Part shown: piece by piece, positions 10,229-61,874 of the stretch | Layout of the letters: each line of letters starts with the position of its first letter | Numbering within the stretch: the stretch's first letter is position 1 | DNA from: an uncultured Gammaproteobacteria bacterium | Lineage (GTDB): Bacteria > Patescibacteriota > Microgenomatia > Levybacterales > GWA1-39-11 | Reading direction: 5' to 3' | NCBI GenBank assembly: GCA_964406795.1 | Contig: CAYOTA010000005.1 | Span: 14,235-78,234, forward strand | DNA: 64,000 bases | Notes under the pieces: model-generated | What the model was told of the DNA's origin: nothing | Databases searched by the model: none | The model's input: only the letters and a program-made list of their open reading frames with translations | Translations under genes and position numbers: made by a program

Positions 10229-10232
10229 TATG

Positions 10233-27455: not shown

Positions 27456-27510
27456 ATACAGACAATTACTTGACTTCCTTTGTAGTCCTCTCTACCATGA
27501 ATATATACCC

Positions 27511-29313: not shown

Positions 29314-29315
29314 CT

Positions 29316-29792
29316 ATGAATACTATAAAAGAGCTAGCATTAATACTTCCCGGATATGGGCAGGTTCAGACACCTCCGGGAATTCCCTCAGGCGCCTCTT
29401 CTCCTCAAACTATTATTCTGGCCTCACTTAACTTGCTTATCATGGCGGTTGTCATAGGTGCTTTGATTTTTATAATCTATGGCGGTATTCTTTGGGCCAC
29501 ATCAGGTGGTGATAAAGCAAAACTTGACAAGGCACGGCGTAGTATTACATTCTCCATAGTAGGGCTGGTTGTGATGATATTAGCCTTTGTGATAGTCCAA
29601 ACTGTAGGTATGCTTTTAGGTGTTTCTGTTCTCTCAGGATTTGGAAAATCCACAGGAGGTAGTAGTAGCCGTCCCGTTAATATAACAAACCCAACCCAAT
29701 GCAGAGCAGGCGGTGGATTTTGTGACCCCCAGTTTTGTACTGCAGGAAATCCTATTGGATCCTGTGGAGCAGGTGTTATATGTTGCAAATAA
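29316..29792 (+). CDS. Pilin-like small membrane protein (TrbC/VirB2-like two-helix motif) with C-terminal beta-defensin-like 6-Cys tail
   Basis: VIGALIFIIYGGILWATSGGDKAKLDKARRSITFSIVGLVVMILAFVIV. Tail CRAGGGFCDPQFCTAGNPIGSCGAGVICCK with spacing C-x6-C-x4-C-x8-C-x5-CC. Confidence 0.55.
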   Translation: MNTIKELALILPGYGQVQTPPGIPSGASSPQTIILASLNLLIMAVVIGALIFIIYGGILWATSGGDKAKLDKARRSITFSIVGLVVMILAFVIVQTVGMLLGVSVLSGFGKSTGGSSSRPVNITNPTQCRAGGGFCDPQFCTAGNPIGSCGAGVICCK

Positions 29793-29852
29793 ATGAACTC
29801 AAATTCGCATATTGACAAACACTTTGAATGTGTGCATTAATGGTTATAGAAC

Positions 29853-30287
29853 ATGAAAAAAGCACTGACCCACATAACAGTTTTAAGCGTACTTCTTCTT
29901 ATTTCAGCAGGTAGCGCATTTGCAGGCAGCCATCCTCCTGTTAATCCTGGTGGTAACGGAACAGTTAATATTGTACCTACAGCTATTGGTCCTGTTGCTA
30001 CAGACGCAAATGGCCTTGTAAGATTTATCATAAATTCATTAATTGTTATCGGAGTTATAGCGTCCCTTATTTTCCTGCTTTGGGGAGGACTCAGATGGAT
30101 TATTTCAGGCGGAGATAAGGGTAAAGTTGACGCCGCAAGAAGTACTATAGTTGCCGCTATCGTAGGACTTGTTGTAGTTATACTCGCCTACGTTATCGTA
30201 AATACTGTACTAACTATTGTGACCGGCTCTGGACTCTCAGGATTCACTCTGCCTACGTTAAGTAACCCTAACAATACAAAGTTCTAG
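29853..30287 (+). CDS. Pilin-like small membrane protein paralog
   Basis: Signal peptide plus VIGVIASLIFLLWGGLRWIISGGDKGKVDAARSTIVAAIVGLVVVILAYVIV. Confidence 0.55.
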   Translation: MKKALTHITVLSVLLLISAGSAFAGSHPPVNPGGNGTVNIVPTAIGPVATDANGLVRFIINSLIVIGVIASLIFLLWGGLRWIISGGDKGKVDAARSTIVAAIVGLVVVILAYVIVNTVLTIVTGSGLSGFTLPTLSNPNNTKF

Positions 30288-30335
30288 ACATTCTTCTCTT
30301 GCATTTTTACCTTTTTCCTTGCATACTTTTACTAT

Positions 30336-30668
30336 ATGAATTTGTTTACAACTGACTGGGGTAAGTGCTTTGACCGCGGGGTCGTAGATGTTAATACCCC
30401 CCCTAAACTCGGCTGCGCATTTATAGTAATCCAAAATATCATTAATGCAGCACTTGTTTTGTCAGCCGTTGTAGCCGTGTTTCTCATAACCTATGCCGCG
30501 TTTCAGTACGTAACGTCAGGCGGGGATAAAGAAAAAGTAGATTCAGCACGTAAGCGAATTACGTTTGCGATAATTGGACTGGTTATTATCTTCATGGCAT
30601 TTGCTGCAATTAACTTCATCTCCACATTTACAGGGGTAAATCCTTCCCAGCTTGGTGTTGGAAGATAA
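30336..30668 (+). CDS. Pilin-like small membrane protein paralog
   Basis: LSAVVAVFLITYAAFQYVTSGGDKEKVDSARKRITFAIIGLVIIFMAFAAI. Confidence 0.55.
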   Translation: MNLFTTDWGKCFDRGVVDVNTPPKLGCAFIVIQNIINAALVLSAVVAVFLITYAAFQYVTSGGDKEKVDSARKRITFAIIGLVIIFMAFAAINFISTFTGVNPSQLGVGR

Positions 30669-33336: not shown

Positions 33337-33717
33337 ATGGAAAATACTCAATACCTTACTGTTGAAAAGCTTTCGTGCTACAAAAGGTCGTTTGAGTTGT
33401 CGAATTATGTGTGGGGCTTGGTTATAAAATGGCACACTCTCGCAAGACACACTATTGGCGCACAACTTATACGCTCTACCGACTCTATATCAGCGAATAT
33501 TGCTGAAGGATTTGGAAGATACTCAAAAAAAGACAAGACTAAGTTTTATTATATTGGGTATGCCTCCACACTGGAATCTGTAGACTGGACTAAGAAAGCT
33601 TTCGCAAGACATGTCGTAACCAAAGAAGAGTTTGATCACATTGTAATAGAGTTGTCTGCCTTGCCTAAAGAAATTCACCAGTTGATTAATTTTACAAATA
33701 AAAAGCTAACGATATAA
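33337..33717 (+). CDS. Four-helix-bundle protein (second paralog)
   Basis: GAQLIRSTDSISANIAEGFGRYSKKDKTKFYYIGYASTLES matches the conserved block of this family. Confidence 0.7.
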   Translation: MENTQYLTVEKLSCYKRSFELSNYVWGLVIKWHTLARHTIGAQLIRSTDSISANIAEGFGRYSKKDKTKFYYIGYASTLESVDWTKKAFARHVVTKEEFDHIVIELSALPKEIHQLINFTNKKLTI

Positions 33718-33808
33718 CGCAAGTATTTGCTACCTTACTAAACGGCTTGTCTGCTATTTTAAACAATTTTAGCAATGCAGCAATTAGACAATTAATTTAT
33801 TTATATTT

Positions 33809-34984
33809 ATGGAGAACCACCCAATCCCACAAGACGTTACCGGATTTAAATTTAGACTTATAGGATCTATAACGCTCAAGCAGTTTTTGTATTTACTAGG
33901 TGCCGGCGGAATAGATCTTGCCCTCTACTTTTTGCCTATCCCAATATTTGTCAAGATTCCCTTAATGGTAATTCCAGCAATTATTGCACTTGGTCTCGCA
34001 TTTGTGCCAATTGACGGACGACCCATGGACAAAATGATCATGAATTTTTTGCGTGCGCTACCTGCTGAAAACGAATTCATTTTTAGGAAAAAAGGTGCTG
34101 ATATGCCCTACTTTGATTTCCAGGCGCCTGTCAGGGCAAAAACAAGTGTTCCGGCACCAGATTCCCGTGCGTCTCAAAAAGCAATTTTATTTAGTCAACT
34201 TTCAAAGTCATACTTCAACGCAGATGAAGACGAACAGCAGGGGATTCAAAATGTAACGTCTTTGTTCCAAACAGGTGGCGCCCCAACAGCGGGTTTTGTA
34301 AACAGAGTAATTAAGGCTGATGAGGCACCAGCTGCAACAGCTCCAGTTCCATTACCACAGGCTCCTTTAGATGAAGCGTCAACCCAAATCACAGACCTGG
34401 CAAAACCAGTTATGCCTTCTGAAATTGCAAAATCTACACAGACACCAAATGCCAGCGCCCCAGCTCCATTACCAAAAGAGGTTGCACCTGCTGCAGAACC
34501 TGTACCCACTCCACTGCCATCTCCAGCACCCTTGGAAAACCTTGTGATTGAAGCTCAACCCACCACCCAACCAGTAATGCAAACCGTAGTACAAGTGGCA
34601 GCTGTGCCACAAGATGTCCAAGAAGCACCCAACACAACACAACCTGTCTCTACCGCCCCGCGCGCGTCCTATGAGGCACCAAATGTTATAGAAGGAATTG
34701 TGCGTGACCCCCGCGGCAAACCGCTTCCTCATGTAATTGTGGAGATCCTGGATGAAAACAACATTCCAAAACGCACATTCAGAACAGGACAAAACGGTAT
34801 GTTTATATCGGCAACCGCCATGGCACCCGGCACATACACTATTCACCTAGAGGACACGCTTAAAAAGCAGGATTTTACAGATAAAACAATTGAGGTTAAC
34901 GGATCAGTGCTTCCCGTTATTGAAATAACGTCAGTAGATCAGCGGGAAAAATTACGCCGAGAATTATTTGGACAAACTATATGA
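33809..34984 (+). CDS. PrgI/VirB3-like membrane protein with long Pro/Ala-rich linker and C-terminal beta-sandwich-like domain
   Basis: The N-terminus FKFRLIGSITLKQFLYLLGAGGIDLALYFLPIP...IPAIIALGLAFVPIDGRPMDKMIMNFLRAL resembles the PrgI family as I recall it. The gene lies upstream of the VirB4-like genes. Confidence 0.45.
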   Translation: MENHPIPQDVTGFKFRLIGSITLKQFLYLLGAGGIDLALYFLPIPIFVKIPLMVIPAIIALGLAFVPIDGRPMDKMIMNFLRALPAENEFIFRKKGADMPYFDFQAPVRAKTSVPAPDSRASQKAILFSQLSKSYFNADEDEQQGIQNVTSLFQTGGAPTAGFVNRVIKADEAPAATAPVPLPQAPLDEASTQITDLAKPVMPSEIAKSTQTPNASAPAPLPKEVAPAAEPVPTPLPSPAPLENLVIEAQPTTQPVMQTVVQVAAVPQDVQEAPNTTQPVSTAPRASYEAPNVIEGIVRDPRGKPLPHVIVEILDENNIPKRTFRTGQNGMFISATAMAPGTYTIHLEDTLKKQDFTDKTIEVNGSVLPVIEITSVDQREKLRRELFGQTI

Positions 34985-35017
34985 GCAAGAAGGATGTTTC
35001 ATCCATAATTTAAAATT

Positions 35018-35626
35018 ATGTCTAAAATTAAATCGACTACACAACAATTTATTGAGATCGAAGATATTCACGATGAAGTGGTGCTTTTAAGAGGACGCAA
35101 TGCCTGCTCTATCTTGGAAGTTTCCAGTGTTAACTTCTTTTTACTCTCTCAAGACGAACAAAACGCACGCGTGTATGGCTACATGTCGCTTTTGAATTCT
35201 TTGTCATTTGCAATTCAAATAGTGATTATTTCCAAACGCATAGATTTGACCTCTTATCTGGGCTCTCTAGATCACAAAATATCAGTTACTCAAAACGCCA
35301 GGGTGTCTGAGCATTTACGCTTATACCGCGATTTTATCCAAGAACTTATTAAAGACGCTGGTCTATTGGACAAAAAAACGTATGTGGTAATTCCTTTTAC
35401 ATCCCTTGAGTTAGGACCTACTGTCGGCAAAAAAGACTATGCCCAGCGGGTAAATGATTCCATTGCCACCAAACGCACAAACGTTATGACACAAATTGAA
35501 AGAATTGGTCTTTCCAGCAGAGTGCTTAAGGCCGAAGAATTATCCCGCGTGTTTTTTGAGCTGTTTAACCAACAAAATATCACAACTGACTTTAGCTCAA
35601 GCGACATTAAGAACATAATCATCTAA
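35018..35626 (+). CDS. VirB4/TraC-family N-terminal domain encoded as a separate ORF
   Basis: TTQQFIEIEDIHDEVVLLRGRNACSILEVSSVNFFLLSQDEQNARVYGYMSLLNSL parallels the N-terminus of Gram-positive VirB4 homologs such as Tn916 Orf16 (QQTIPYREMLKDGICRVNDKLYTKTIRFFDINYQLAQNEDKNAIF). Confidence 0.5.
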   Translation: MSKIKSTTQQFIEIEDIHDEVVLLRGRNACSILEVSSVNFFLLSQDEQNARVYGYMSLLNSLSFAIQIVIISKRIDLTSYLGSLDHKISVTQNARVSEHLRLYRDFIQELIKDAGLLDKKTYVVIPFTSLELGPTVGKKDYAQRVNDSIATKRTNVMTQIERIGLSSRVLKAEELSRVFFELFNQQNITTDFSSSDIKNIII

Positions 35627-35712
35627 ATTTATCTAACAACTAACAGGTCTCATCTAAAATTGATGGAAAAAATAAATGATAGATTATAGATAATACATAA
35701 TAAATTAAATAT

Positions 35713-37878
35713 ATGTTTGGAATAGGTAAAAAAAATAAAAAACAACAGGCACAGCAGGTTGCAGCGCCACTTGTAGCTGGACAGCCAGTTAAACCAGGAG
35801 CAGTGCCTGCTGCTGCAGGAACTATGATGCCGCAAAAAGCGGCACAGACAGCACTGAATCAAGGCATTCAAACCTTGAAACAAGGCTCGGTGTCACTTGT
35901 GGACCTTATTGCGCCCTCATCTGTTGAAGTGGATTTTAAAAACATCCGCGTAGGAGATGCATTTTATAGAACGTTTATTGTAGTAGATTATCCGCGTGAA
36001 GTGTCCCCGAGCTGGCTATCTGTTTTAATTGACTACAAAGAAACCATGAATATCTCTATGTTTGTGTATCCTGTCGAAAGTAAGGATATTTTGTCCAACT
36101 TACGACGCAAGGTTGCAGAAATGGAAGCAACACTTGAGTCTGACGCCAAAAACGGAATTGAATCAGATCCTAAAGTACGTGCTGCACTTGAAGACGCAAT
36201 TGCGCTGCGTGAAGAGTTGGCCCGCGGCCTAGAACGATTCTTTCAGTTTGGACTCTATATAACGCTTTCAGCCAAAAGTATTGAGGAGCTGGATCGCAAA
36301 ACAAATGAATTAACATCACTGCTTGCCTCCAACTTGCTTGTCATTAAACCCGCTACTCTTCAGATGGAAGATGGGTTTAAAACAACGCTTCCAATTGGGC
36401 AAGATAAATTATTTGTAACTCGCAACATGGATACCACGTCAGTTGCGTCCACCTTCCCGTTTACGTCATATGAAATTTCGCATCCTAATGGTATTTTTTA
36501 CGGTGTTAACACCCTCAACAACTCACTTGTAATAGTTGACCGATTTTCGTTTGAAAACGCAAATTCTGTGGTTTTTGGAAAATCAGGATCAGGAAAATCA
36601 TTCTTGGTAAAACTTGAGATTTTGCGCCAAATGATGTTTGACGCAGAAATATTAATTATTGATCCGGAAGATGAATACAGAACCTTGTCTCACGCACTGG
36701 ACGGAGAATACATTTCATTTTCCAAAGACTCTGAAGTGCGCATAAACCCTTTTGCACTGTTATCAGATGATAGAACTGAGGCACAATTGGGTATTAAAAT
36801 ACTGTCTCTTCACTCACTTCTCAAAACCATGTTAGGTGCCTTTTCGCCAACACAGGAAGCAATTCTTGACCGCTCGCTTGTTCTAACATACAAGCAAAAA
36901 GGAATAACACCGGATCCTGCAACTTACTCAAACGAAGCACCAATTCTGGAAGATCTGTATAAAACTCTTTTAAACGTGGAAGAACCGGAAGCAAAAGACC
37001 TAGCGTTTAGACTGGAAAAATATGTAAAAGGAGGATTTGCAGGGCTGCTCAATGCCCAGACAAATTATGACGTTAAAAACCAGCTGACAGTGTTTTCCAT
37101 AAAACAGCTTGAAGACGCCCTGCGCCCTGTGGCAATGCAGGTTATTTTGGACTTTATTTGGAACAGAGTCAGAACAAAACTCAAGAAAAGAATCCTGATT
37201 GTAGATGAGGCTTGGTACTTAATGCGAAATCCAGACTCTGCCGCTTTTCTCCAGGGAATTGCAAAACGTGCACGCAAATATTACCTAGGTGTGACGACTT
37301 TAACTCAGGATATTGAAGACTTTTTGTCATCAGACTATGGGAAGGCAATTTTGTCCAATTCCTCTATGCAAATACTGCTAAAACAGAATTCATCAGAGGT
37401 TGAAGTGCTTGCTTCCACCCTAAATCTATCTGAAGGAGAAAAACAGTTTTTGCTAACCGCCCAGGTGGGTGAAGGACTCTTTTTTGCAGGACAAAATCAC
37501 ATAACCGCGCAGTTCTTGGCTTCTAACTTTGAGTACCAGCTTATTACGTCAAAGCCGCAAGATATTTTAGATGAAGAAAGCAGAAACCTGCCTCCACAAG
37601 CGGAACAAATTATACAGGCTGACGCACAAACTCAAGCAACAGTTGAACAGCCAGTGACTCCTCCTCAACCTCTTGCGCCTGCGCCTGCGCCGGGTATTCA
37701 AGCACCTGAGGTAGCCTATGAGGCGCCACAAATTGTACCGGCAAATCCAGAACAGCCTATTGCACAACCTCAACCTGCCGTTCAGCCCGCTACGCCTCAA
37801 CCAGCCGCACCTGTGCAAAACCCTACTCCGCCAATACAACCGGGCCCGCAACCTGTGGAGCCAACTACTCCTAGATAA
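35713..37878 (+). CDS. VirB4/TrbE/CagE-like T4SS ATPase (ATPase part) with Pro/Gln-rich C-terminal tail
   Basis: LIAPSSVEVDFKNIRVGDAFYRTFIVVDYPREVSPSWLSVLIDY. Walker A VVFGKSGSGKSFLVK. Walker B ILIVDEAWYLM (DEAW). Confidence 0.7.
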   Translation: MFGIGKKNKKQQAQQVAAPLVAGQPVKPGAVPAAAGTMMPQKAAQTALNQGIQTLKQGSVSLVDLIAPSSVEVDFKNIRVGDAFYRTFIVVDYPREVSPSWLSVLIDYKETMNISMFVYPVESKDILSNLRRKVAEMEATLESDAKNGIESDPKVRAALEDAIALREELARGLERFFQFGLYITLSAKSIEELDRKTNELTSLLASNLLVIKPATLQMEDGFKTTLPIGQDKLFVTRNMDTTSVASTFPFTSYEISHPNGIFYGVNTLNNSLVIVDRFSFENANSVVFGKSGSGKSFLVKLEILRQMMFDAEILIIDPEDEYRTLSHALDGEYISFSKDSEVRINPFALLSDDRTEAQLGIKILSLHSLLKTMLGAFSPTQEAILDRSLVLTYKQKGITPDPATYSNEAPILEDLYKTLLNVEEPEAKDLAFRLEKYVKGGFAGLLNAQTNYDVKNQLTVFSIKQLEDALRPVAMQVILDFIWNRVRTKLKKRILIVDEAWYLMRNPDSAAFLQGIAKRARKYYLGVTTLTQDIEDFLSSDYGKAILSNSSMQILLKQNSSEVEVLASTLNLSEGEKQFLLTAQVGEGLFFAGQNHITAQFLASNFEYQLITSKPQDILDEESRNLPPQAEQIIQADAQTQATVEQPVTPPQPLAPAPAPGIQAPEVAYEAPQIVPANPEQPIAQPQPAVQPATPQPAAPVQNPTPPIQPGPQPVEPTTPR

Positions 37879-37880
37879 GT

Positions 37881-40769
37881 ATGGCAACAGCAACGACAGA
37901 TACTACAAGGCTTCGTGAGCAAATTAAGAGCTTAGAGCTTGATGACATTGCAATAGAAAGAGAAGTTAGAAAAGGATTATTAACTATTGAGGAAGGCAAA
38001 AAAAGAAAAGCCGAAATTGACACGCAACGAAGCAAAATAAGCAAAGAACTACAACACGCAGAAACAGAAACTCCCCATGATGAAAAAAAACATAAAGATG
38101 ACAAGCATGAAAAGGAACAACTAATACCGAATAAACAAACCGAGGAGGCAGAGGCTGATACCGTTACTAGCCCTACAAGCTCATCGACCACTGAAGTTAC
38201 TGAAAACATATCTACCACCCAACCAACTACTACCATAACTGCTTCGCCAGGTTCTGATTCTCCTTCCACGTCAGCTGTGAACCTAACACCAGCTTTCTCA
38301 TCCTCTACAACGCAAGATGTGCCCATAGATTCTCCGCCTCAAAATCAAACACCCAAAATAACGTATAGTGAGCCAAAACCTACAACACTCCCTCTAAATA
38401 CACAAAGCTCGACATCAGACGAATTAGCACCAACTATTCAAAAGGCAACTTCTGCCACCGAGATTAAAACAGCTCCTTTTGCAGTACAGCCCCCAACCCC
38501 AATTGCAAAGCGAACTATTTTAAAGGCAATTGGAAAAGCAGCCCTACAAAAAACCGGAAGTGTTTATAAATATACTCCGCTTGGATTTTTAGTTGGACAA
38601 CTTGATCTTGGAGAAAAAGAACGAGAATTTGCAAAAAACACCACAAAAACTATTCTTTCAGCACCTAAAACTCTCACAAAAGCATCAAGTAATGCTGCCA
38701 AAACTGGCGCCTTAACAGCCCTTAAATATACACCTGGAGGATTACTGTGGGAGCACTTAGTTCCGGAGAGTATAAAAACAAACATAAAAGCGGCACTGCA
38801 CACGAATTTTATTAAGAACCCTCCCCTGAAAATAGATATAAAAGGAACAACCAAATCCGGGGGCAAAAAAGCCATTAATAATTATTCAAAATTCTATAAA
38901 TATACCCCGCTTGGTCTGATTTGGAAAAGTTTTGTTCCTAAGTCAACCCAGGATATGTTGGGGGGTATTGCTAAAAATCCTAAAACAATCACTCAAAATA
39001 AATTTAAGGAAGTCAAAAATAAACAAACACAAGTAGTCAAAAGTGCTTCTAAATCTGTGTTCGGGAAGTACGCCAGTGCCTATAAGAAATATACCCCTCT
39101 TGGTCTACTTTATAAGGCCATTCCTGAGGACAAAAAACAAAAAGCCAAAAAATCTATTAAATCAGCCAAGGAATACCAAAAGGCATGGAACAAAGGAATT
39201 GTATCCAAAGCGCTTAAAAAGGGGTATGACAGGCTTGGTCTGCTTCAAAAGATTAGAAATTCAAAGGTTTGGCAGTCAAAAGCATGGAAATATGGAAAAT
39301 ATGCTGTTTCCCCACTGGGGGCTGCCATGTATGACCGCAAACAGTATCTAAAAAAACAGAATCAAAAAGTACAAAGCGGACAAACACTTCCACCTTCAAA
39401 ACTAAGATCTGCACTACAGGGGAAAAATCCATATGCTGAATGGACTTCTCCCAAAAGTCTTTCCAACAAATTCTGGAATAAAGCTTGGAATAAATTTGGA
39501 ACACCGGGTGCGGGAAATGTAAATAATGCATTGGGACGAAAGATAGGAAATAAGGCGGGTGGGAAAGCAGCCAAGAAAGTGGGCCAACAACTGGCAAAAA
39601 AGGCTGTTCAAACTGCTGTTCAAACTGGTGCACGCGCGCTTATTTTTAACCCCGTAACGCTTGGTTTTATTGGAATTGCAGTGCTCGTACTAATTGCAGC
39701 AATAACCCTTATCATAATAATTTCATCCATTATGGGGGGCGGAGACTCTGGAGGCGGTAATGGAAATGATGAGGAAAATAACGGCAATACTCCTGTTGCA
39801 AACCCCATTCCCGGTTTTACTCTGACACTTACGGGCCCGCCTTCCATTAACACCTGCGGTGACACAAGCGCCCCGGAGTGTGTTATTGAATACTCAGCAA
39901 CCTATTCACAGCCGCAACAAGGCACAAGGCTTGATACTATTACGGTCTACAATGATCTTCCCACCAATACAGAGTTTGTGAGCGCAGGTCCAACAGCAGA
40001 GTACGACGCTAACGCTAAAAGAGTGTCGTGGAAACTCTCTGATACAACAAACGCATCACCACTTATAGTAAGGCTCAGACCAACACAAAATAATATTCGA
40101 GTGAATAATACGGTGTATGCTCTCGCAACACCTGCGGGAGGCGGTATGATTGCGCCGCCATCAGACAGTTTGGTTGCAACCTTTGAGGCAGCGGCAAGAG
40201 AATACAATGTCCCATCAGCTCTCACGCGCGCTATTGCAAAAACAGAAAGTGGAGCACACGACACATACAGTAACGATGACTTTACAACTTTTAATCAGTC
40301 TGGCTGGTTTACAGGTCTTGCTGATGATGCCCCAACCAAAGACCAGCTCCCGGAACTAATTCAGCGTGGATATGCTTATAATACGTGCGCCTATCCAAAA
40401 AGTAACCCAATTTGCCCTGGTTCTGATGTAAGGGGAATAACGCAATTTCTCAATACTACTTGGGATAGTGTTAAAGATAGGATTCCTACTATAAGTGGTG
40501 CCTCGGGAGACAGAAGATACGCAACTGATGCAGTATATGGCCAAGCAAGACACACACGGGATATAATAGAGAGATATGATGGAGATTTTGGCTTTAGCAA
40601 CAACCCCACAGACTTTACTGAAGCACAGGTTAGGGCGATTGCCATATCCTATTGTGCGGGCAATCCCTTCGCAAATATTAATGTGCCTGCCTGTAGTAAT
40701 ACTAGCGGAACATATGACACTAAAGTCTGGAATTTTTATCAAGAAATAAGAGCAACACAAAACCAATGA
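37881..40769 (+). CDS. 962-aa protein with four distinct regions and a VirB1-like lytic transglycosylase C-terminus
   Basis: Regions in order: a coiled-coil plus Ser/Thr-rich segment; Lys-rich internal repeats containing KYTPLG; a TM helix LGFIGIAVLVLIAAITLIIIISSIMGG; and a C-terminal SLT-like domain with LTRAIAKTESGAHD...GITQFLNTTW. Confidence 0.55.
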   Translation: MATATTDTTRLREQIKSLELDDIAIEREVRKGLLTIEEGKKRKAEIDTQRSKISKELQHAETETPHDEKKHKDDKHEKEQLIPNKQTEEAEADTVTSPTSSSTTEVTENISTTQPTTTITASPGSDSPSTSAVNLTPAFSSSTTQDVPIDSPPQNQTPKITYSEPKPTTLPLNTQSSTSDELAPTIQKATSATEIKTAPFAVQPPTPIAKRTILKAIGKAALQKTGSVYKYTPLGFLVGQLDLGEKEREFAKNTTKTILSAPKTLTKASSNAAKTGALTALKYTPGGLLWEHLVPESIKTNIKAALHTNFIKNPPLKIDIKGTTKSGGKKAINNYSKFYKYTPLGLIWKSFVPKSTQDMLGGIAKNPKTITQNKFKEVKNKQTQVVKSASKSVFGKYASAYKKYTPLGLLYKAIPEDKKQKAKKSIKSAKEYQKAWNKGIVSKALKKGYDRLGLLQKIRNSKVWQSKAWKYGKYAVSPLGAAMYDRKQYLKKQNQKVQSGQTLPPSKLRSALQGKNPYAEWTSPKSLSNKFWNKAWNKFGTPGAGNVNNALGRKIGNKAGGKAAKKVGQQLAKKAVQTAVQTGARALIFNPVTLGFIGIAVLVLIAAITLIIIISSIMGGGDSGGGNGNDEENNGNTPVANPIPGFTLTLTGPPSINTCGDTSAPECVIEYSATYSQPQQGTRLDTITVYNDLPTNTEFVSAGPTAEYDANAKRVSWKLSDTTNASPLIVRLRPTQNNIRVNNTVYALATPAGGGMIAPPSDSLVATFEAAAREYNVPSALTRAIAKTESGAHDTYSNDDFTTFNQSGWFTGLADDAPTKDQLPELIQRGYAYNTCAYPKSNPICPGSDVRGITQFLNTTWDSVKDRIPTISGASGDRRYATDAVYGQARHTRDIIERYDGDFGFSNNPTDFTEAQVRAIAISYCAGNPFANINVPACSNTSGTYDTKVWNFYQEIRATQNQ

Positions 40770-41146
40770 GAAAACTAATATTTATACTTACAGCAGGAGT
40801 TATTGTTCTACTAATTATTGTGGCTTTCTTCTTTATACAGTCCCAGAAAACCATAACCCCTCCACTCACGCCACCTCAACCGACACCGTTCCAACTGTCC
40901 AACCCCTCGCCTTCTATCACTACACAAACTAACCCTCTTGAAGCATATGAGCTGTTAAAGCAGGTGCCTTACTCTTCTACAGGCTTTAACATTGAATACC
41001 TTACTGTTTCAGAAGTTTTGATGATAACAATCAAAGAAAGCCCTGTGGAAGCCCAGAAACAGGCTGCGCTCAGCTGGATACAAGATCAAGGTTTTGACCC
41101 TCAAGATTTCAATATTCAGTACAACATCTATCCATACTTGCAATGA
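40766..41146 (+). CDS. Small membrane-anchored secreted protein
   Basis: Start overlaps the upstream stop (ATGA). N-terminal TM. Confidence 0.4.
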   Translation: MRKLIFILTAGVIVLLIIVAFFFIQSQKTITPPLTPPQPTPFQLSNPSPSITTQTNPLEAYELLKQVPYSSTGFNIEYLTVSEVLMITIKESPVEAQKQAALSWIQDQGFDPQDFNIQYNIYPYLQ

Positions 41147-41847
41147 ATACTATTATTAAACCGTTTACCATATCTGTATGTCTGTTGCTTTTTTTTACTA
41201 CGATAACTCACGCTCAATTAAAAACAACCAGCAATACTGTTACAACTAATATCGGAACCCCTCCCTCTACAACGGCGCCGAATGTGGAGGATACAAACCT
41301 GAGGCAAGCTTTAATTGACACTTTTGGGATAACAATGAATGGATTTGATACAACGCATCTTAGATGGACCTGGGAAAAACTCCACGAAACAAACAATACA
41401 ACATTTCCCAGCCTTCTAAGAGGGTCTATTATCCAGGCACAACCATCAGGAATATCTTCACAAGTTGGATGTTTTGGAGGAGAAGTATCTCTCTATCTGG
41501 GACAATACCAAGGTGAGGCTTTTTTTAAGTTTATATTAATTCATGAATTGGCTCATATTGCCCAGAAGTGTCCACTGCGCGAACAAAACAGGGTCGTAGA
41601 ACACGCGAATGCGCTTGCGAGAGAGGGTTATATTGCATATTACCCAGCCAACACGGTACTGTGTGTGGGAGGAGATAATGGTGTAAATGAAGACTATGCC
41701 GATACATTAGCTTACTATTTTAATCCGAATGCGGGATTTTCTTCAGGACCATTAAGCTGTACAGGGCCTGCAGGACAAAATGCCCCTCCTAATCCATACC
41801 TAGGAGGCAAATTTCCATTGCACAAAGCGGTGGCTGAATCTCTATAA
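41143..41847 (+). CDS. Secreted putative zinc metallopeptidase (HEXXH)
   Basis: Signal peptide. Motif ILIHELAHIAQ. Confidence 0.45.
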   Translation: MNTIIKPFTISVCLLLFFTTITHAQLKTTSNTVTTNIGTPPSTTAPNVEDTNLRQALIDTFGITMNGFDTTHLRWTWEKLHETNNTTFPSLLRGSIIQAQPSGISSQVGCFGGEVSLYLGQYQGEAFFKFILIHELAHIAQKCPLREQNRVVEHANALAREGYIAYYPANTVLCVGGDNGVNEDYADTLAYYFNPNAGFSSGPLSCTGPAGQNAPPNPYLGGKFPLHKAVAESL

Positions 41848-41855
41848 TTATTTTT

Positions 41856-42476
41856 ATGAATACATTTTTATCAAATAATAAAAAGCTTACGCTCCTAATT
41901 TTTGTCTCAACAATTATCATAATCGGTATTTTTTTGCTAACATATTTCGCAACCCCTCCCTCTTTATCCCCTAATCAGATCGCTCCTCAACCAACAAAAT
42001 ATATACTTAAAGATCCCATAAGCATTCCATCTTTTCAAAAAACTATAATAGGGAAAACTACAAATCAGGAAATAGAAGCCATTCCTGGTATTACAAAAGC
42101 GCCTGAATCAAATTATTCTTATTCGTCTTACCTTATTACGCGTCCTAATGAAATAAAAACAGAAAACAACACAGCTTCGTTTGAACGTGTATTACTACCC
42201 GTAAGCTCGTCAGATCCAAACTTTACTACAATCCCACAACTTATTGAAAAATACGGACAACCAGATAAAGTAGTAAGAGGATCAAAATACTATGGCGATT
42301 TCCTAAACACGTATATTTACGCCACTCAAGGCATGGCATTTGTAGGAAACCCTAATACTAATGAGGTTTACGAAATTCAGTTTTTTAATCCAATGACACC
42401 AGATGAATACGAAAAAAAATACGGACAAGAAATTCTTAATAGCACAGAATCAATAAAAGAGATTCACGGGCAATAA
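41856..42476 (+). CDS. Membrane-anchored secreted hypothetical protein
   Basis: N-terminal TM followed by an extracellular domain. Confidence 0.4.
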   Translation: MNTFLSNNKKLTLLIFVSTIIIIGIFLLTYFATPPSLSPNQIAPQPTKYILKDPISIPSFQKTIIGKTTNQEIEAIPGITKAPESNYSYSSYLITRPNEIKTENNTASFERVLLPVSSSDPNFTTIPQLIEKYGQPDKVVRGSKYYGDFLNTYIYATQGMAFVGNPNTNEVYEIQFFNPMTPDEYEKKYGQEILNSTESIKEIHGQ

Positions 42477-43583
42477 CTAGTCTTGAACTCTTACTGGCAT
42501 GATTACGTGGAAATATTCAGGATCTTCATCTGTGGTAAAAAGTGCGGGCTCAACAGAACTGTTCACATGTAGTTTTATCTTATCCCCATTTACTGACTTT
42601 AAATAGTCCTGCACAAATTTAATATTAAACGCAATGGTATTATCATCCCCTGACTGCACACCCTCAACAATAGTTTTGGACTCTCCAAGACTTGCTGTAG
42701 ACACGTAAATCGTGAGTTTAGAAAGTGAGATGGTAAGATTTATGATGTTTGCGTTTTCACGCGCAAAAACAGCTGACGCACGCAGTGCATCTAATAGCTC
42801 AGCCTTACTAAATTCAAAAATTGTTTTAGAGCCTACGGGTATTACTTTCTCATAATCTGGATACGTACCTTCTATAAGGCGTCCTACAAGAACTGTGTTT
42901 TCTGATTCAAGTATTGCCTGGTTACCTGGGTTGTACACATACAAAGAGAGTTTATCCACATTTTTCTGCGCAACACCTTCTGAAAGCAATCTGGGAGAAA
43001 GAATTATGCCTGACTCCAACTCGCCTATCCCCTGGCCGTCTTTCACACGCTTTAATGACATCCTGTACCCATCAGTTGCAACATAGTCTACCCCCGCGTC
43101 CTTTTTTACCATATACACTCCGGTTAAATGCGGGCGGGATTCGTCTTGAGACACAGCATACAAAAGTTTTGAGAAAATTGAACCAAATGCGCTTGGCGTA
43201 TATTCTCCAAGCTTATTGCCTTTTTCTTCAAAAAGCTTTGGGAATTCTTCTTTGGGTATTACTTGGAATTTATATTGACCATTTTCAGAATGTATGGTTA
43301 TTTGATCACCGTCTTGAATGAGTGAGACTTTCCCTCGAGGCACGGTTGATAAAATTTCTATAAACTGTTTCCCCGGTACTAGTAGTCCACCGTCTTCCTC
43401 AATTTGGGACGGAAGCACTACTCTCACGCCAAATTCTAAGTCAGTTGATGAAAGACTAAACACTCCATTTTGTATCTCCAGTAAGACACTTGAGAGAATT
43501 GGAATTTGTGAATGTGTTGGAACTATTTTTCCAAGAAGGGATAGTTTTTCTTGTAAGTTATCTGCTAAAAAATTTACTTTCAT
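42477..43583 (-). CDS. dnaN: DNA polymerase III beta subunit (sliding clamp)
   Basis: 368 aa, three-domain clamp-like. N-terminus MKVNFLADNLQEKLSLLGKIVP. Adjacent to dnaA. Confidence 0.85.
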   Translation of the reverse strand: MKVNFLADNLQEKLSLLGKIVPTHSQIPILSSVLLEIQNGVFSLSSTDLEFGVRVVLPSQIEEDGGLLVPGKQFIEILSTVPRGKVSLIQDGDQITIHSENGQYKFQVIPKEEFPKLFEEKGNKLGEYTPSAFGSIFSKLLYAVSQDESRPHLTGVYMVKKDAGVDYVATDGYRMSLKRVKDGQGIGELESGIILSPRLLSEGVAQKNVDKLSLYVYNPGNQAILESENTVLVGRLIEGTYPDYEKVIPVGSKTIFEFSKAELLDALRASAVFARENANIINLTISLSKLTIYVSTASLGESKTIVEGVQSGDDNTIAFNIKFVQDYLKSVNGDKIKLHVNSSVEPALFTTDEDPEYFHVIMPVRVQD

Positions 43584-43749
43584 ACATTTATTTTAAATAG
43601 TAGTAGCAGTAGTATAGGGGCATAAGTGGAAAAAAGCAACGAGGCGTGCCTGGTAAAATGTGGATAACTTGAGGAAAACTTTGTGTATTGTTTGTTTATA
43701 ACTGGGTTTTTCATATTTGTGTGTTTACAACTACTACATAATTCACAGG
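43584..43749. promoter_or_regulatory. dnaA-dnaN intergenic oriC-type region with DnaA box
   Basis: Perfect DnaA box TGTGGATAA at 43649-43657 inside the 14-mer AATGTGGATAACTT. AT-rich flank. Confidence 0.55.
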
Positions 43750-45072
43750 TTATCCCGTGATGATCTGGCGTATATTTTTTACCTCTTCCATGATTCGGAC
43801 GTCCGCTTGAAGCTTTTCAGATACACGATCCACACCATGCATAACCGTTGTGTGATCGCGTCCCCCCAGGAGATTTCCTATCTCAACTAATGATAATCCC
43901 ACATCTTCTTTTAAGATGTACATGCATATTTGTCTGGGTTTTACAAACACGGCGCTGCGCCGCTCTCCTTTTATTTGTGTACTTTTAATGTTGTAAAAAT
44001 TACAGATGATACTGACAACGTCATCAGGATGCAGAAATTTAGATTTTTCAACCTTCTCGCCCAGGAGATGAAGCGTTTCATCATGGGTAATTTGGCGTTT
44101 CTTGGATGTTTGTGCAGTAGCAATTTTTAGCAAAAACCCTTCAAGCGCACGGGTGTTTTCCACACGCTCGGCTATTGTCTTGGCAGTATCGGTAGTCATT
44201 TCTATTCCATGCTTGCGCGCCTTAATAAGTAGGATTGCGGCTCGCAACTCAAAGTCTGGCGGCTGAATGTCTACCGTAAGTCCCCCTTCAAATCTGGATG
44301 CTAGTCTGGCCTCAATTTTTTTAAGCTCTGAGGGTGGTCTGTCTGATGAAAACACTATCTGCCCTCCCCCATCAATGAGTGCATTAAACGTGTGAAAAAG
44401 TTCTTCCTGGACCTTTTCTTTACCAGTCAAAAACTGTATATCATCAAGCAAAAGTAAATTTGTTTGTCTAAATTTACGCCGTATATTTTGTGTGGACTTA
44501 TTCATAATTGCTTCAACTACCTCATTGGTAAACTCTTCTGTCGTAAGGTACAAAATTTTGGCCATAGGATTTTTTGAAAACACCTCATTTGCTATGGCAT
44601 GCATTAAGTGAGTTTTGCCGACACCCACTGTTCCATACATAAAAAGTGGGTTGTACTTTGATCCGGGGGATAGCGCGACCGTTTGACACGCCGTATAAGC
44701 AAGTTGATTTGAGTCAGAAACGGCCAATGTCTCAAATGTATATTCATGCTTAATCCTGGGATTGATGGACCGCTCTATAGGTCTTGTATCAAATAATGGA
44801 CCCGGATCAGATCTAGCTATTTTGCCGGCACTCTTTCCATATTCAAAATGGAGAGTAAGGTTTTCTTTGCCAGACTTTTTCTCAAGTGCCGTTTTTATCA
44901 TGTCTCCATATTTTTTCTCCACCTGAGACGCAATGATAAAGGTGGGGGTTGAGATGATTGCTGTGTTCTCCTCAATTGACACGAGTCTCGTTTGCTTTAA
45001 ATACATAAGAAACGCACCCTTGGTTACATCAAGTTGCAAATCAGACAGTACAGAGTTCCAAAGCGTGTCCAT
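43750..45072 (-). CDS. dnaA: Chromosomal replication initiator DnaA
   Basis: Walker A GTVGVGKTHLMHAIANE. Walker B LLLDDIQFL. C-terminal DNA-binding HTH ICMYILKEDVGLSLVEIGNLLGGRDHTTVMHG. Start set at MDTLWNSVL. Confidence 0.9.
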   Translation of the reverse strand: MDTLWNSVLSDLQLDVTKGAFLMYLKQTRLVSIEENTAIISTPTFIIASQVEKKYGDMIKTALEKKSGKENLTLHFEYGKSAGKIARSDPGPLFDTRPIERSINPRIKHEYTFETLAVSDSNQLAYTACQTVALSPGSKYNPLFMYGTVGVGKTHLMHAIANEVFSKNPMAKILYLTTEEFTNEVVEAIMNKSTQNIRRKFRQTNLLLLDDIQFLTGKEKVQEELFHTFNALIDGGGQIVFSSDRPPSELKKIEARLASRFEGGLTVDIQPPDFELRAAILLIKARKHGIEMTTDTAKTIAERVENTRALEGFLLKIATAQTSKKRQITHDETLHLLGEKVEKSKFLHPDDVVSIICNFYNIKSTQIKGERRSAVFVKPRQICMYILKEDVGLSLVEIGNLLGGRDHTTVMHGVDRVSEKLQADVRIMEEVKNIRQIITG

Positions 45073-45105
45073 AATAAGGCCTTTGAGGATAATTGCGTGC
45101 CGCAA

Positions 45106-61580: not shown

Positions 61581-61874
61581 AAATTGACATGTAAGAAAAA
61601 CAGGAGTATAGTACGTATTGAGGAGAGGCTTACGAAAGAATTTACGAGCGTGTAGATCCCGCTAAGCGGGAAAACGAGGAAGAAGGGTCCCGATTTAATC
61701 GGGACAATCGGACCTCCGATTAAATCGGAGAGTATTTGCGGAAACCTTCAGGTTGTGAATGTCAACCTTAATAGTTTTTTCAAACCTACTAGTAATAGTA
61801 GACACAAAGAAAAACTTATGCATTTTAAGCCCCATTATTCTCCTGAAGTAATTTTTTATATAACAACATAATCT
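61581..61874 (+). promoter_or_regulatory. Structured glmS 5' leader (candidate glmS ribozyme/riboswitch)
   Basis: Three consecutive hairpins CCCGCtaaGCGGG, CCCGAtttaaTCGGG and CTCCGAttaaaTCGGAG, plus an ACGAGGAAGAAGGG segment, upstream of glmS. Confidence 0.3.

What the first reader, a model, noticed from the sequence alone, without database searches (positions are those of the whole stretch)
33809..40769. T4SS-like core cluster with VirB4 split into two ORFs and a giant VirB1-like transglycosylase
The gene order is PrgI/VirB3-like (33809), a 202-aa ORF that matches only the conserved VirB4 N-terminal domain (35018..35626), then a separate 721-aa ORF carrying the rest of VirB4 with Walker A GKSGSGKS and Walker B DEAW (35713..37878), and finally a 962-aa protein ending in an SLT lytic-transglycosylase domain. 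The two VirB4 pieces are in different frames and are separated by 86 nt of AT-rich spacer containing stops. This is not a simple single-base frameshift. It is either a genuine two-gene split or an older disruption. The rest of the apparatus is dispersed across the window: the coupling ATPase at 1.2 kb, a VirB6-like protein at 20.4 kb and the pilins at 27.5 kb. That is unlike compact conjugative operons and fits a chromosomal, possibly host-interaction or DNA-uptake apparatus.
Basis: partly seen in the sequence, partly recalled or inferred. Interest (0 to 1): 0.6.

Follow-up and report, generated by a model that had tools for sequence, protein, structure and literature searches.

The report
Known two-gene VirB4 in Patescibacteria T4SS

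Summary
The window is a Levybacteria (Patescibacteria/CPR) chromosome, and the cluster lies next to dnaN and dnaA.

- **The split is real and complementary.** The 202-aa ORF covers positions 1-181 of a VirB4 family profile, and the 721-aa ORF covers 175-732. A fused 787-aa Patescibacteria VirB4 aligns colinearly with both. The predicted fold of the small protein matches R388 TrwK/VirB4.
- **The split is conserved.** All 74 related loci that hold both parts have a stop codon between them, in every relative frame and with varied spacing. Pseudogene and assembly artefact are excluded.
- **It is already known.** The small protein is a TrsD homologue, as in trsC-trsD-trsE-trsF-trsG of staphylococcal pSK41. 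Quinonero-Coronel et al. 2025 (PMC12102498) report TrsD next to virB4 as the most abundant T4SS component of Patescibacteria. They also report the position near dnaA, distant coupling proteins, VirB2-like pilin arrays and usually no relaxase.
- **The transglycosylase claim is only suggestive.** The 962-aa protein has no family hit above threshold. It has GH23-like motifs, and positional orthologues carry SLT_3 or M23 domains.
- **The "VirB6-like" protein is unverified.**

Interest is low.

The parts
33809..34984 (+). PrgI/VirB3-like membrane protein (391 aa). PrgI domain at aa 5-83, hydrophobic stretch at about aa 26-71, a long Pro/Ala-rich linker, and a C-terminal CarboxypepD_reg-like beta domain at aa 294-348.
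   Evidence: Pfam PF12666, 38.6 bits (cut-off 27). PF13620 at E 5.9e-7, below its cut-off. Hydropathy. Found immediately upstream of the TrsD-like gene wherever the locus holds the upstream sequence.
35018..35626 (+). TrsD-like protein (202 aa): the N-terminal roughly 180-residue domain of VirB4 encoded as a separate soluble protein.
   Evidence: NCBIfam hits to the N-terminus of VirB4 families and to the full length of TrsD/TraD. hhalign against pSK41 TrsD gives probability 88%, E 2.8e-6. 40% identity to residues 6-209 of the fused VirB4 P0146. The AF2 model has pLDDT 73 and its top 14 Foldseek PDB hits are all TrwK/VirB4. 389 homologues were found; the best 120 are all 193-227 aa.
35627..35712 (.). 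Intergenic spacer, 86 nt, 18.6% GC, with stop codons in all three frames.
   Evidence: Promoter- and terminator-like sites in the region are no more frequent than in shuffles.
35713..37878 (+). VirB4-family ATPase (721 aa) lacking the first roughly 175 profile positions. It has a low-complexity leader of about 60 aa, Walker A GKSGSGKS at aa 289-296 (nt 36577-36600), Walker B DEAW at aa 498-501 (nt 37204-37215), and a Pro/Gln-rich C-terminal tail.
   Evidence: NCBIfam NF045971, 426 bits (cut-off 325), profile positions 175-732. Pfam P-loop_TraG at 4.8e-35 and CagE_TrbE_VirB at 5e-5. 28% identity to pSK41 TrsE, E 3e-49, with the match starting at TrsE residue 35. 58% identity to P0146 residues 213-772.
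37881..40769 (+). 962-aa single-pass membrane protein in the VirB1/PrgK/TrsG position. Lys-rich N-terminal part (presumably cytoplasmic) of about 580 aa with four KYTPLGLL-type repeats, TM at aa 584-623 (nt 39630-39749), DUF11-like beta-sandwich at about aa 643-745, and a C-terminal GH23-like (lytic transglycosylase/lysozyme-like) domain at about aa 760-962 (nt 40158-40766). The candidate catalytic Glu is E789 (nt 40245-40247).
   Evidence: No family above threshold. Homologues P0271 and P0272 carry DUF11. Pfam SLT at E 0.069 over the catalytic helix. phrog_342 'internal virion protein with endolysin domain' at E 0.0013 over the GxxQ..TW region. hhalign places E789 on the catalytic-helix Glu-Ser (ES) motif of Slt70, MltE, TrsG and SLT_3, but with probability of 10% or less. 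E, G-x-x-Q, TW and YC are invariant in 11 sequences. Positional orthologues carry SLT_3 or Peptidase_M23. TM and repeats.
40766..42476 (+). Three co-oriented small ORFs, the first two overlapping their upstream neighbour by 4 nt (126, 234 and 206 aa). Each has an N-terminal hydrophobic segment. The 234-aa protein has an HELAH (HExxH) motif. Probable tail of the operon, function unknown.
   Evidence: coordinates and sequences; hydropathy. No Pfam or NCBIfam hit.
27385..30668 (+). Array of four VirB2-like T4SS pilin paralogues (642, 158, 144 and 110 aa).
   Evidence: Pfam PF18895 in all four, 30-35 bits against a cut-off of 26.6. The first also hits NCBIfam Mbov_0395 pilin-like family.
1233..3668 (+). 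VirD4/TraD-like coupling ATPase (811 aa) with an N-terminal hydrophobic segment, 30 kb from virB4.
   Evidence: Pfam TrwB_AAD_bind (26.3 bits) and TraG-D_C (24.5 bits). NCBIfam SXT_TraD at 3.3e-13 and conju_CD1115 at 6.4e-6, all below the curated cut-offs. Hydropathy.
42477..45105 (-). dnaN (42477-43583) and dnaA (43750-45105): chromosomal origin-proximal context directly downstream of the cluster.
   Evidence: Pfam DNA_pol3_beta N, central and C domains; Bac_DnaA at 1.1e-63.

Best explanation
This is the core operon of the chromosomal, origin-proximal type IV secretion system typical of Patescibacteria, here in a Levybacteria (Microgenomatia) genome. It derives from the monoderm MPF-FATA conjugation machinery.

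VirB4 is encoded as two polypeptides. A 202-aa TrsD-like protein supplies the N-terminal roughly 180-residue domain. A 721-aa protein supplies the rest of the N-terminal region and the ATPase domain. This is an old, selectively maintained gene arrangement, the same one seen as TrsD plus TrsE in staphylococcal pSK41/pGO1-type plasmids.

Inferred mechanism: the two products associate non-covalently, together with the PrgI/VirB3-like membrane protein encoded just upstream, to form the membrane-associated ATPase platform. That platform powers assembly of the VirB2-like pilins and substrate passage. The 962-aa single-pass membrane protein downstream occupies the VirB1/PrgK/TrsG slot and presents a cell-wall-binding module and a hydrolase-type module outside the membrane.

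By analogy with Saccharibacteria, where the system, including the TrsD homologue, is essential for epibiotic growth, the machine serves interaction with a host cell rather than conjugation.

Shown here: the identity and complementarity of the two ORFs, conservation of the split, synteny, and context. Inferred: physical assembly, enzymatic activity of the 962-aa protein, and biological role.
For: **Complementary profile coverage.** The 202-aa ORF covers positions 1-181 and the 721-aa ORF covers 175-732 of NF045971.

**Colinearity with a fused relative.** The fused 787-aa Patescibacteria VirB4 P0146 matches the 202-aa ORF over its residues 6-209 (40% identity) and the 721-aa ORF over its residues 213-772 (58% identity).

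**Fold.** The AF2 model (pLDDT 73) has TrwK/VirB4 of R388 as all of its top 14 PDB matches.

**TrsD homology and synteny.** hhalign against pSK41 TrsD gives probability 88%. pSK41 has the gene order trsC-trsD-trsE-trsF-trsG. TrsE aligns from its residue 35 with residue 63 of the 721-aa ORF, so TrsE also lacks the N-terminal domain.

**Conservation.**
- The best 120 homologues of the 202-aa protein are all 193-227 aa, at 53-92% identity.
- 74 of 74 related loci (Levy-, Gottesman-, Chisholm-, Curtissbacteria and Paceibacterota) have a stop between the two genes. All three relative frames occur (22, 23 and 29 loci). Gaps run from overlaps of 1-29 nt to +359 nt.
- There are 1500 family representatives at 50% clustering. 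Of the six best-150 hits scanned, only P0146 (787 aa) is a full-length fused VirB4; the next longest (P0214, 679 aa) is not.

**Context.** dnaN and dnaA are adjacent. There is a pilin array and a distant T4CP. Housekeeping genes are interspersed, and no relaxase family hit was found.

**Literature.** PMC12102498 reports 2,272 TrsD homologues in Patescibacteria, 1,664 of them next to virB4, with dnaA/dnaN proximity, T4CP far from virB4, pilin arrays abundant in Microgenomatia, and relaxases rare. According to PMC12102498, which cites Wang et al. 2023 (a paper I did not read), the TrsD homologue is essential in S. epibionticum. PMC12857230 reviews the essentiality of this T4SS.
Against: - The score against the curated TrsD/TraD model is far below its cut-off (28 bits against 200), so homology to TrsD rests on profile-profile and structural evidence.
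- No direct evidence that the two products bind each other. No multimer prediction was possible.
- In this window the genes are 86 nt apart rather than overlapping as in many relatives, so translational coupling is not evident here. No SD-like sequence was seen by eye before 35713 (not formally scanned).
- The hydrolase activity of the 962-aa protein is unproven: Pfam SLT is below threshold, the AF2 model is poor, and hhalign probabilities are 10% or less.
- The functional role is extrapolated from a different class (Saccharimonadia).
Confidence: 0.87

Rival explanations
1. The split is a disruption: a pseudogenised VirB4, or a sequencing or assembly artefact, in this genome only.
For: The two pieces lie in different frames and are separated by an AT-rich spacer with stops. 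A fused 787-aa form exists in some Patescibacteria.
Against: - 74 of 74 related loci from many independent assemblies have the same two-gene state, with different junctions.
- Homologues keep a constant length of about 202-227 aa at 53-92% identity.
- The break falls exactly at a domain boundary.
- The same arrangement occurs in functional staphylococcal conjugative plasmids.
Confidence: 0.02
2. The cluster belongs to an integrated conjugative element and moves DNA by conjugation.
For: - VirB4, TrsD and PrgI are homologous to MPF-FATA conjugation proteins.
- A VirD4-like coupling ATPase is in the window.
- A tyrosine recombinase lies at 57707-58573 and tRNA genes lie nearby.
- A ComF-like gene lies at 11542-12279.
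Against: - No relaxase family hit in any scanned ORF of 110 aa or more in the 64-kb window.
- T4SS genes are interspersed with housekeeping genes such as RNR, NrdR, SmpB/tmRNA and FtsH.
- The position next to dnaN/dnaA is conserved for the class according to PMC12102498.
- GC content is uniform at 0.38-0.43 across the window.
- Relaxases are rare in Patescibacteria (109 in the dataset of PMC12102498).
Confidence: 0.06
3. The 202-aa protein is an independent paralogue derived from the VirB4 N-domain. On this view it is a regulator or adaptor (for example for the coupling ATPase or the pilins), not a stoichiometric structural part of the VirB4 assembly.
For: [quoted passage not shown]
- In Gracilibacteria, TrsD homologues are not next to virB4 (PMC12102498).
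- Many family members carry C-terminal extensions of 100-400 aa with no recognisable domain.
- The 86-nt gap here gives no sign of translational coupling.
Against: - The 721-aa protein lacks exactly the segment that the 202-aa protein supplies. The two are complementary, not duplicated.
- Adjacency is strictly conserved, and about 22 of 74 loci have overlapping stop and start codons under a first-ATG assumption.
- A fused form exists with the two parts only about 3 residues apart.
Confidence: 0.08

Closest known systems
Patescibacteria-clade T4SS (Quinonero-Coronel et al. 2025, PMC12102498; S. epibionticum system as described there and in PMC12857230, citing Wang et al. 2023, not read)
   Same: VirB4 with an adjacent TrsD homologue, PrgI/VirB3, a VirB2-like PF18895 pilin array, a T4CP encoded far away, no relaxase, and a location next to dnaA/dnaN. 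The best homologues are all Levybacteria or other Patescibacteria.
   Different: Nothing essential differs. The paper reports few VirB3 homologues near virB4 in Microgenomatia and few VirB1 homologues. Here PrgI is directly upstream in 71 of the 74 loci that hold both parts. A hydrolase-type protein follows virB4 in many loci. This is probably a matter of search sensitivity rather than biology.
TrsD + TrsE of Staphylococcus aureus pSK41/pGO1 (MPF-FATA subclass; also TraD + TraE of pIP501 by family name NF041427)
   Same: A free-standing protein of about 200-230 aa, homologous to the VirB4 N-terminus, is encoded directly upstream of a VirB4-like ATPase that starts after that domain. The gene order is VirB3-like, TrsD, VirB4, membrane protein, cell-wall hydrolase.
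   Different: - Those are plasmid-borne conjugation systems with a relaxase and no pilin array.
- Sequence similarity is remote: 18% identity in the hhalign alignment, and an NCBIfam score of 28 against a cut-off of 200.
- TrsG has SLT plus CHAP domains and a short intracellular part, whereas the 962-aa protein here has a large N-terminal part (presumably cytoplasmic), a DUF11-like module and an unclassified GH23-like domain.
Single-chain VirB4 (TrwK of R388, PDB 7o42/8rtb/8rtd; CD1110-family VirB4; fused Patescibacteria VirB4 MEK7091100.1)
   Same: Same domain content and order when the two ORFs are read together. The predicted fold of the small protein matches TrwK chains.
   Different: Here the chain is divided after about residue 200 into two genes. 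The ATPase part has acquired a low-complexity leader of about 60 aa.
VirB1-type cell-wall hydrolases of monoderm T4SS (PrgK of pCF10, TraG of pIP501, TrsG of pSK41)
   Same: Encoded downstream of virB4, membrane-anchored, with a C-terminal part (presumably extracellular) carrying a lysozyme-like motif set (E-S, G-x-x-Q, Y).
   Different: No Pfam or NCBIfam match above threshold. There are about 60 residues between the E-S motif and the GxxQ motif (E789 to G852), which is longer than I recall for canonical SLT domains (my recollection; the canonical spacing was not measured here). There is no CHAP or LytM domain. Activity is untested. Relatives at the same position carry SLT_3 or M23 instead.

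Membership tests
VirB4-like conjugal transfer ATPase, CD1110 family (NCBIfam NF045971) | Score above the curated cut-off (325 bits) | tested here: met
   The 721-aa ORF scores 426.2 bits, E 2.4e-127, but covers only profile positions 175-732.
VirB4-like conjugal transfer ATPase, CD1110 family (NCBIfam NF045971) | Walker A and Walker B NTPase motifs | tested here: met
   GKSGSGKS at aa 289 and DEAW at aa 498. P-loop_TraG at 4.8e-35.
VirB4-like conjugal transfer ATPase, CD1110 family (NCBIfam NF045971) | Single polypeptide that includes the N-terminal domain (profile positions 1-175) | tested here: not met
   Positions 1-181 are matched only by the separate 202-aa ORF. A stop and an 86-nt spacer lie between the two.
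TrsD/TraD family conjugative transfer protein (NCBIfam NF041427) | Score above the curated cut-off (200 bits) | tested here: not met
   28.4 bits, E 1.3e-6, although the alignment is full-length (11-200 of 201).
TrsD/TraD family conjugative transfer protein (NCBIfam NF041427) | Free-standing protein of about 200 aa, remotely homologous to the VirB4 N-terminus | tested here: met
   hhalign probability 88% against pSK41 TrsD; fold matches TrwK/VirB4.
TrsD/TraD family conjugative transfer protein (NCBIfam NF041427) | Encoded immediately upstream of a VirB4-like ATPase and downstream of a VirB3-like gene | tested here: met
   Window order; pSK41 order; same order in the related loci that hold all three genes.
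Patescibacteria-clade T4SS (PMC12102498) | VirB4 belongs to the Patescibacteria clade related to MPF-FATA | tested here: inconclusive
   No tree was built. The best family is the MPF-FATA-type CD1110. 506 related stretches were found; of the best 80 kept, those with an informative title are Patescibacteria MAGs, and the many entries titled 'uncultured Gammaproteobacteria' look like mislabels.
Patescibacteria-clade T4SS (PMC12102498) | TrsD, PrgI/VirB3 and VirB2-like pilins near virB4 | tested here: met
Patescibacteria-clade T4SS (PMC12102498) | No relaxase associated; chromosomal location near dnaA/dnaN | tested here: met
   No relaxase family hit among the scanned ORFs of the window. dnaN and dnaA lie at 42477-45105. 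The rest of the genome was not available.
PrgI family (Pfam PF12666) | Score above the gathering threshold (27 bits) | tested here: met
   38.6 bits, aa 5-83.
SLT / GH23 lytic transglycosylase (Pfam PF01464) | Score above the gathering threshold (21.3 bits) | tested here: not met
   13.2 bits, E 0.069, covering only profile positions 3-28. Nothing at E of 0.1 or better for the whole protein.
SLT / GH23 lytic transglycosylase (Pfam PF01464) | Catalytic Glu in an E-S motif at the end of a helix, followed by G-L-M-Q-type and A-Y-N-type motifs | tested here: inconclusive
   E789-S790, G852-I-T-Q855...T860-W861 and Y924-C925 are invariant, or nearly so, in 11 homologues. hhalign aligns E789 with the ES-motif Glu of Slt70, MltE, TrsG and SLT_3, but probabilities are 0.3-10%. 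phrog_342 (endolysin domain) at E 0.0013.
SLT / GH23 lytic transglycosylase (Pfam PF01464) | Lysozyme-like all-alpha fold | tested here: inconclusive
   The AF2 model has mean pLDDT 54. The C-terminal part is helical but mostly below pLDDT 60. Foldseek matched only the beta-sandwich part.
VirB6/TrbL/PrgH family (for ORF 20438-22186) | Sequence match to a VirB6-type profile | tested here: not met
   No Pfam or NCBIfam hit. BLASTP against the pSK41 TrbL-family protein gives E 1.6. No PDB sequence hit. Only a polytopic membrane topology is seen.
Conjugative element (MPF + T4CP + relaxase) | Relaxase gene | tested here: not met
   None in the 64-kb window. The whole genome was not testable.

The most novel reading that the evidence does not exclude
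The gene slot directly downstream of virB4 in Microgenomatia may hold a family of large single-pass membrane proteins whose C-terminal (presumably extracellular) cell-wall-hydrolase module is exchangeable: SLT_3, Peptidase_M23, or the unclassified GH23-like domain seen here, which has an unusually long spacing between its catalytic motifs. On this reading these proteins are the 'missing' VirB1 equivalents of the Patescibacteria T4SS, and they may act on the host cell's wall rather than the bacterium's own. A second, less likely, reading is that keeping the VirB4 N-domain as a separate subunit allows regulated assembly of the machine.
Probability: 0.2. Interest if true: 0.45.

Novelty: already known. 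Interest (0 to 1): 0.2.

Why it matters
For the genome scan, the result removes a false lead. The split VirB4 is not a pseudogene, a frameshift or a new architecture. It is the standard, published TrsD plus VirB4 organisation of the Patescibacteria T4SS, a system shown to be essential for epibiotic growth in Saccharibacteria.

Two small points go beyond the literature I read:
- The fission point is defined exactly by colinearity with a fused Patescibacteria VirB4.
- The gene after virB4 in many Microgenomatia loci encodes a membrane protein with a variable peptidoglycan-hydrolase-type module. This bears on the published suggestion that these systems do without VirB1.

Neither point changes the overall picture.

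Tried and rejected
- **PDB sequence searches.** Searches with the 202-aa protein, the 962-aa protein, a profile of its C-terminal domain, and the 582-aa membrane protein gave only chance-level hits.
- **AF2 of the C-terminal 323 aa of the 962-aa protein.** With a 4-sequence alignment the model was poor (pLDDT 54). Foldseek on it matched only beta-sandwich, CBM and adhesin domains and said nothing about the helical domain.
- **More homologues of the C-terminal domain.** Two database searches returned only 3 and 5 proteins. None had a Pfam hit that settles the family.
- **hhalign of the domain profile.** Comparisons with Slt70, MltE, TrsG and a local SLT_3 profile aligned only the catalytic helix, at low probability.
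- **Promoter and terminator scan of 33400-42600.** Counts were no higher than in shuffles, so operon boundaries could not be set.
- **VirB6 test.** BLASTP of the 582-aa protein against the pSK41 TrbL-family protein found nothing.
- **PF26593.** The precomputed Pfam label PF26593 on almost all homologues of the 202-aa protein could not be resolved. The local Pfam copy gave no hit, and no paper mentions the accession.
- **Rejected readings.** Programmed frameshift or read-through is rejected because there are stops in all frames and junctions vary among relatives. Duplication of the N-domain is rejected because the two ORFs are complementary.

Full report
**1. What is in the sequence**

- ORF 33809-34984 (391 aa) passes the Pfam PrgI threshold (38.6 bits). 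It also has a sub-threshold CarboxypepD_reg-like domain near its C-terminus.
- ORF 35018-35626 (202 aa) has no hit in the local Pfam copy. In NCBIfam it matches the N-terminal part of two VirB4 families: conju_CD1110 positions 1-181 of 752, and VirB4_plasma positions 100-281 of 894. It also matches the full length of the TrsD/TraD family (11-200 of 201). All three scores are far below the curated cut-offs.
- ORF 35713-37878 (721 aa) passes the CD1110 VirB4 cut-off (426 bits against 325), but only over profile positions 175-732. It carries GKSGSGKS at aa 289 and DEAW at aa 498.
- The spacer between these two ORFs is 86 nt, 18.6% GC, with stops in all frames, and the ORFs are in different frames.

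**2. Organism and context**

The best homologues are from Levybacteria and other Patescibacteria MAGs. The window has typical CPR features:

- PF18895 pilins, DUF5667, and four-helix-bundle '23S rRNA IVP' proteins;
- an intein-containing ribonucleotide reductase;
- a group I intron.

dnaN and dnaA lie directly after the cluster at 42477-45105. Housekeeping genes are interspersed with the T4SS parts: SmpB and tmRNA, NrdR and RNR, FtsH, a class I (Trp/Tyr-type) tRNA synthetase, MurD, and glmS with its ribozyme. GC content is uniform. No relaxase family was hit among the ORFs of 110 aa or more that I scanned. This is chromosomal DNA near the origin, not a compact mobile element.

**3. Is the split genuine?**

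Three lines of evidence say it is.

(a) *Complementarity.* The two ORFs cover adjacent, essentially non-overlapping parts of the same VirB4 profile. A fused 787-aa VirB4 from Patescibacteria exists as P0146 (MEK7091100.1), seen at 772-787 aa in five members of its cluster, and it matches CD1110 positions 3-735. Its residues 6-209 align with the 202-aa ORF at 40% identity. Its residues 213-772 align with residues 66-623 of the 721-aa ORF at 58% identity. The fission point is therefore at a domain boundary, with only about 3 residues between the two matches.

(b) *Fold.* An AF2 model of the 202-aa protein, built from a 34-sequence alignment, has mean pLDDT 73. Its top 14 Foldseek matches in the PDB are all TrwK/VirB4 chains of the R388 T4SS (E 8e-4 to 8e-3, TM 0.39-0.53 on the query).

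(c) *Conservation.*
- The best 120 of 389 homologues are all 193-227 aa, at 53-92% identity.
- Of 80 related genomic loci, the 74 that contain both parts all have a stop codon between them.
- The relative frame is 0, 1 or 2 in 22, 23 and 29 loci.
- The junction ranges from overlaps of 1-29 nt (about 22 loci under a first-ATG assumption) to gaps of up to 359 nt in L059.
- At 50% clustering the family has 1500 representatives. The domain is at the N-terminus in nearly all of the best 150, and the six I scanned include one full-length fused VirB4.

A pseudogene, an assembly error, or a programmed frameshift cannot produce this pattern.

**4. What it is called**

The small protein is a TrsD homologue. 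In staphylococcal plasmid pSK41 the annotated order is trsC, trsD (227 aa, 'TrsD/TraD family'), trsE (672 aa, VirB4-like), trsF (membrane protein), trsG (CHAP-domain hydrolase).

- A profile of the Levybacteria proteins aligns with TrsD over 169 columns at hhalign probability 88%, E 2.8e-6.
- TrsE aligns with the 721-aa ORF at 28% identity, E 3e-49, starting at TrsE residue 35 against query residue 63. TrsE therefore lacks the same N-domain.

The window's order (PrgI, TrsD-like, VirB4, large membrane protein) is the same synteny.

**5. It is already published**

Quinonero-Coronel et al. 2025 (PMC12102498) surveyed Patescibacteria T4SS. They state the following:

[quoted passage not shown] They found 2,272 homologues, 1,664 of them associated with virB4.
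- The TrsD homologue of S. epibionticum is essential.
- T4CP genes are mostly far from virB4.
- VirB2-like pilin arrays are abundant in Microgenomatia.
- Relaxases are rare.
- dnaA and dnaN are common neighbours of virB4 in Microgenomatia and Paceibacteria.

The 2025 FEMS review (PMC12857230) summarises the essentiality of this T4SS and its pilin array. It speculates on a conduit for exchange with the host. A 2024 PNAS perspective (PMC11665869) calls the role of this T4SS in Saccharibacteria 'completely unknown' and mentions effector delivery or uptake as possibilities. A 2026 preprint reports tubular structures that may be T4SS pili at the parasite-host interface (10.64898/2026.06.21.733656).

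**6. The 962-aa protein**

The claim of an SLT domain is not met at family thresholds. There is no Pfam or NCBIfam hit for the whole protein. For the isolated C-terminal domain there is only Pfam SLT at E 0.069 over profile positions 3-28.

Architecture:
- about 580 Lys-rich residues, presumably cytoplasmic, with four KYTPLGLL-type repeats;
- one TM segment at aa 584-623;
- a DUF11-like beta-sandwich;
- a helical C-terminal domain of about 200 aa.

Evidence suggesting a GH23 (lysozyme-like) nature for that C-terminal domain:
- E789-S790, G852-x-x-Q855, T860-W861 and Y924-C925 are invariant or nearly so in 11 homologues.
- hhalign places E789 on the catalytic-helix Glu-Ser motif of E. coli Slt70, E. 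coli MltE, pSK41 TrsG and a local SLT_3 profile. Probabilities are only 0.3-10%.
- PHROG 342 ('internal virion protein with endolysin domain') hits the GxxQ..TW region at E 0.0013.
- Homologue P0273 has the same DUF11-like module followed by a sub-threshold SLT_3 match (23.9 bits against a cut-off of 27) in the same place.

Positional evidence: in related loci the ORF or ORFs downstream of virB4 carry SLT_3 (7 loci), Peptidase_M23 (17 loci downstream, plus 2 upstream), or this GH23-like domain (6 loci plus the window). I read the protein as the functional counterpart of VirB1/PrgK/TrsG with an exchangeable hydrolase module. Enzymatic activity and fold remain untested, because the AF2 model was poor.

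**7. Other parts**

- Four PF18895 pilin ORFs at 27385-30668 are confirmed.
- The 811-aa ORF at 1233-3668 is VirD4/TraD-like at modest scores.
- The 582-aa ORF at 20438-22186 is a polytopic membrane protein with no detectable similarity to VirB6, TrbL or PrgH. The VirB6 label is unverified. This matches the paper's remark that VirB6 homologues are scarce in Microgenomatia.

**8. Mechanism**

*Shown:* the two gene products together contain all the parts of a VirB4, and the arrangement is under long-term selection.

*Inferred from established knowledge:* the R388 inner-membrane-complex structures carry VirB3 and VirB4 together (entries), and PMC12857230 describes 1:1 VirB3-VirB4 binding. On that basis the TrsD-like protein would associate with the ATPase chain and with PrgI at the membrane, reconstituting the VirB4 N-domain. 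The assembly would power pilin and substrate handling. The downstream membrane protein would open or bind peptidoglycan.

*Extrapolated from Saccharibacteria:* the system serves the epibiotic interaction with a host, not conjugation.

**9. Verdict**

Interest is 0.2. The only modest residue of novelty is the unclassified GH23-like domain and the variable hydrolase slot after virB4.

Noticed in passing
window 37881-39630 (aa 225-420 of the 962-aa protein): Four spaced repeats of a KYTPLG(L/F)L-type motif (aa 231, 283, 341, 404) in the Lys-rich N-terminal part (presumably cytoplasmic). They are not obvious in the L003 orthologue. Function unknown.
   Followed up: partly
window 33809-34984: The PrgI/VirB3-like protein is unusually long (391 aa). 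After the PrgI domain comes a Pro/Ala-rich linker of about 200 aa and a CarboxypepD_reg-like beta domain. This long form aligns over aa 1-388 in most Levybacteria loci.
   Followed up: partly
window 41143-41847: A 234-aa ORF with an N-terminal hydrophobic segment and an HELAH (HExxH) motif overlaps the preceding ORF by 4 nt in the same operon. It may be a secreted metallopeptidase. No family hit.
   Followed up: no
window 26121-27455: An AAA_16-like ATPase fused to an OmpR/PhoB-type winged-helix domain (Trans_reg_C, 1.8e-22) lies directly upstream of the pilin array. It is a candidate regulator of the pilins.
   Followed up: no
window 25700-26077 and 33337-33717: Two four-helix-bundle '23S rRNA intervening sequence protein' paralogues (PF05635/TIGR02436). 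One lies upstream of the regulator and pilin array, and the other lies just before prgI.
   Followed up: no
window 15428-19054 (-): The ribonucleotide reductase large subunit is interrupted by an intein with a LAGLIDADG endonuclease domain. NrdR lies next to it at 19127-19576.
   Followed up: no
window 59364-59573 (-): A group I intron match (Rfam RF00028, 53.2 bits, just above the gathering score of 50) lies in a stretch with no ORF of 110 aa or more. The host gene was not identified.
   Followed up: no
window 61636-61827 (+): A glmS ribozyme lies upstream of glmS (61875-63635). A tmRNA lies at 10230-10658 (-) next to smpB.
   Followed up: no
window 4742-4816 (-): tRNA-Ile with anticodon TAT. 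A BRO-N domain protein lies at 3671-4516 (-), right after the VirD4-like gene.
   Followed up: no
Almost all homologues of the 202-aa protein carry a precomputed Pfam label PF26593. The local Pfam-A scan of the window protein returned no family, and no paper in the library mentions the accession.
   Followed up: partly
loci L001, L003, L006 and others: Many contigs that clearly belong to Levybacteria/Patescibacteria are titled 'uncultured Gammaproteobacteria' or 'Pseudomonadales' in their public records. These look like taxonomic mislabels of MAGs.
   Followed up: no
Protein-representative hits P0141-P0270: Many TrsD-like proteins are 300-680 aa, with the TrsD domain at the N-terminus and a long C-terminal extension that has no recognisable domain (checked for P0214, P0254, P0178 and P0143).
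   Followed up: partly
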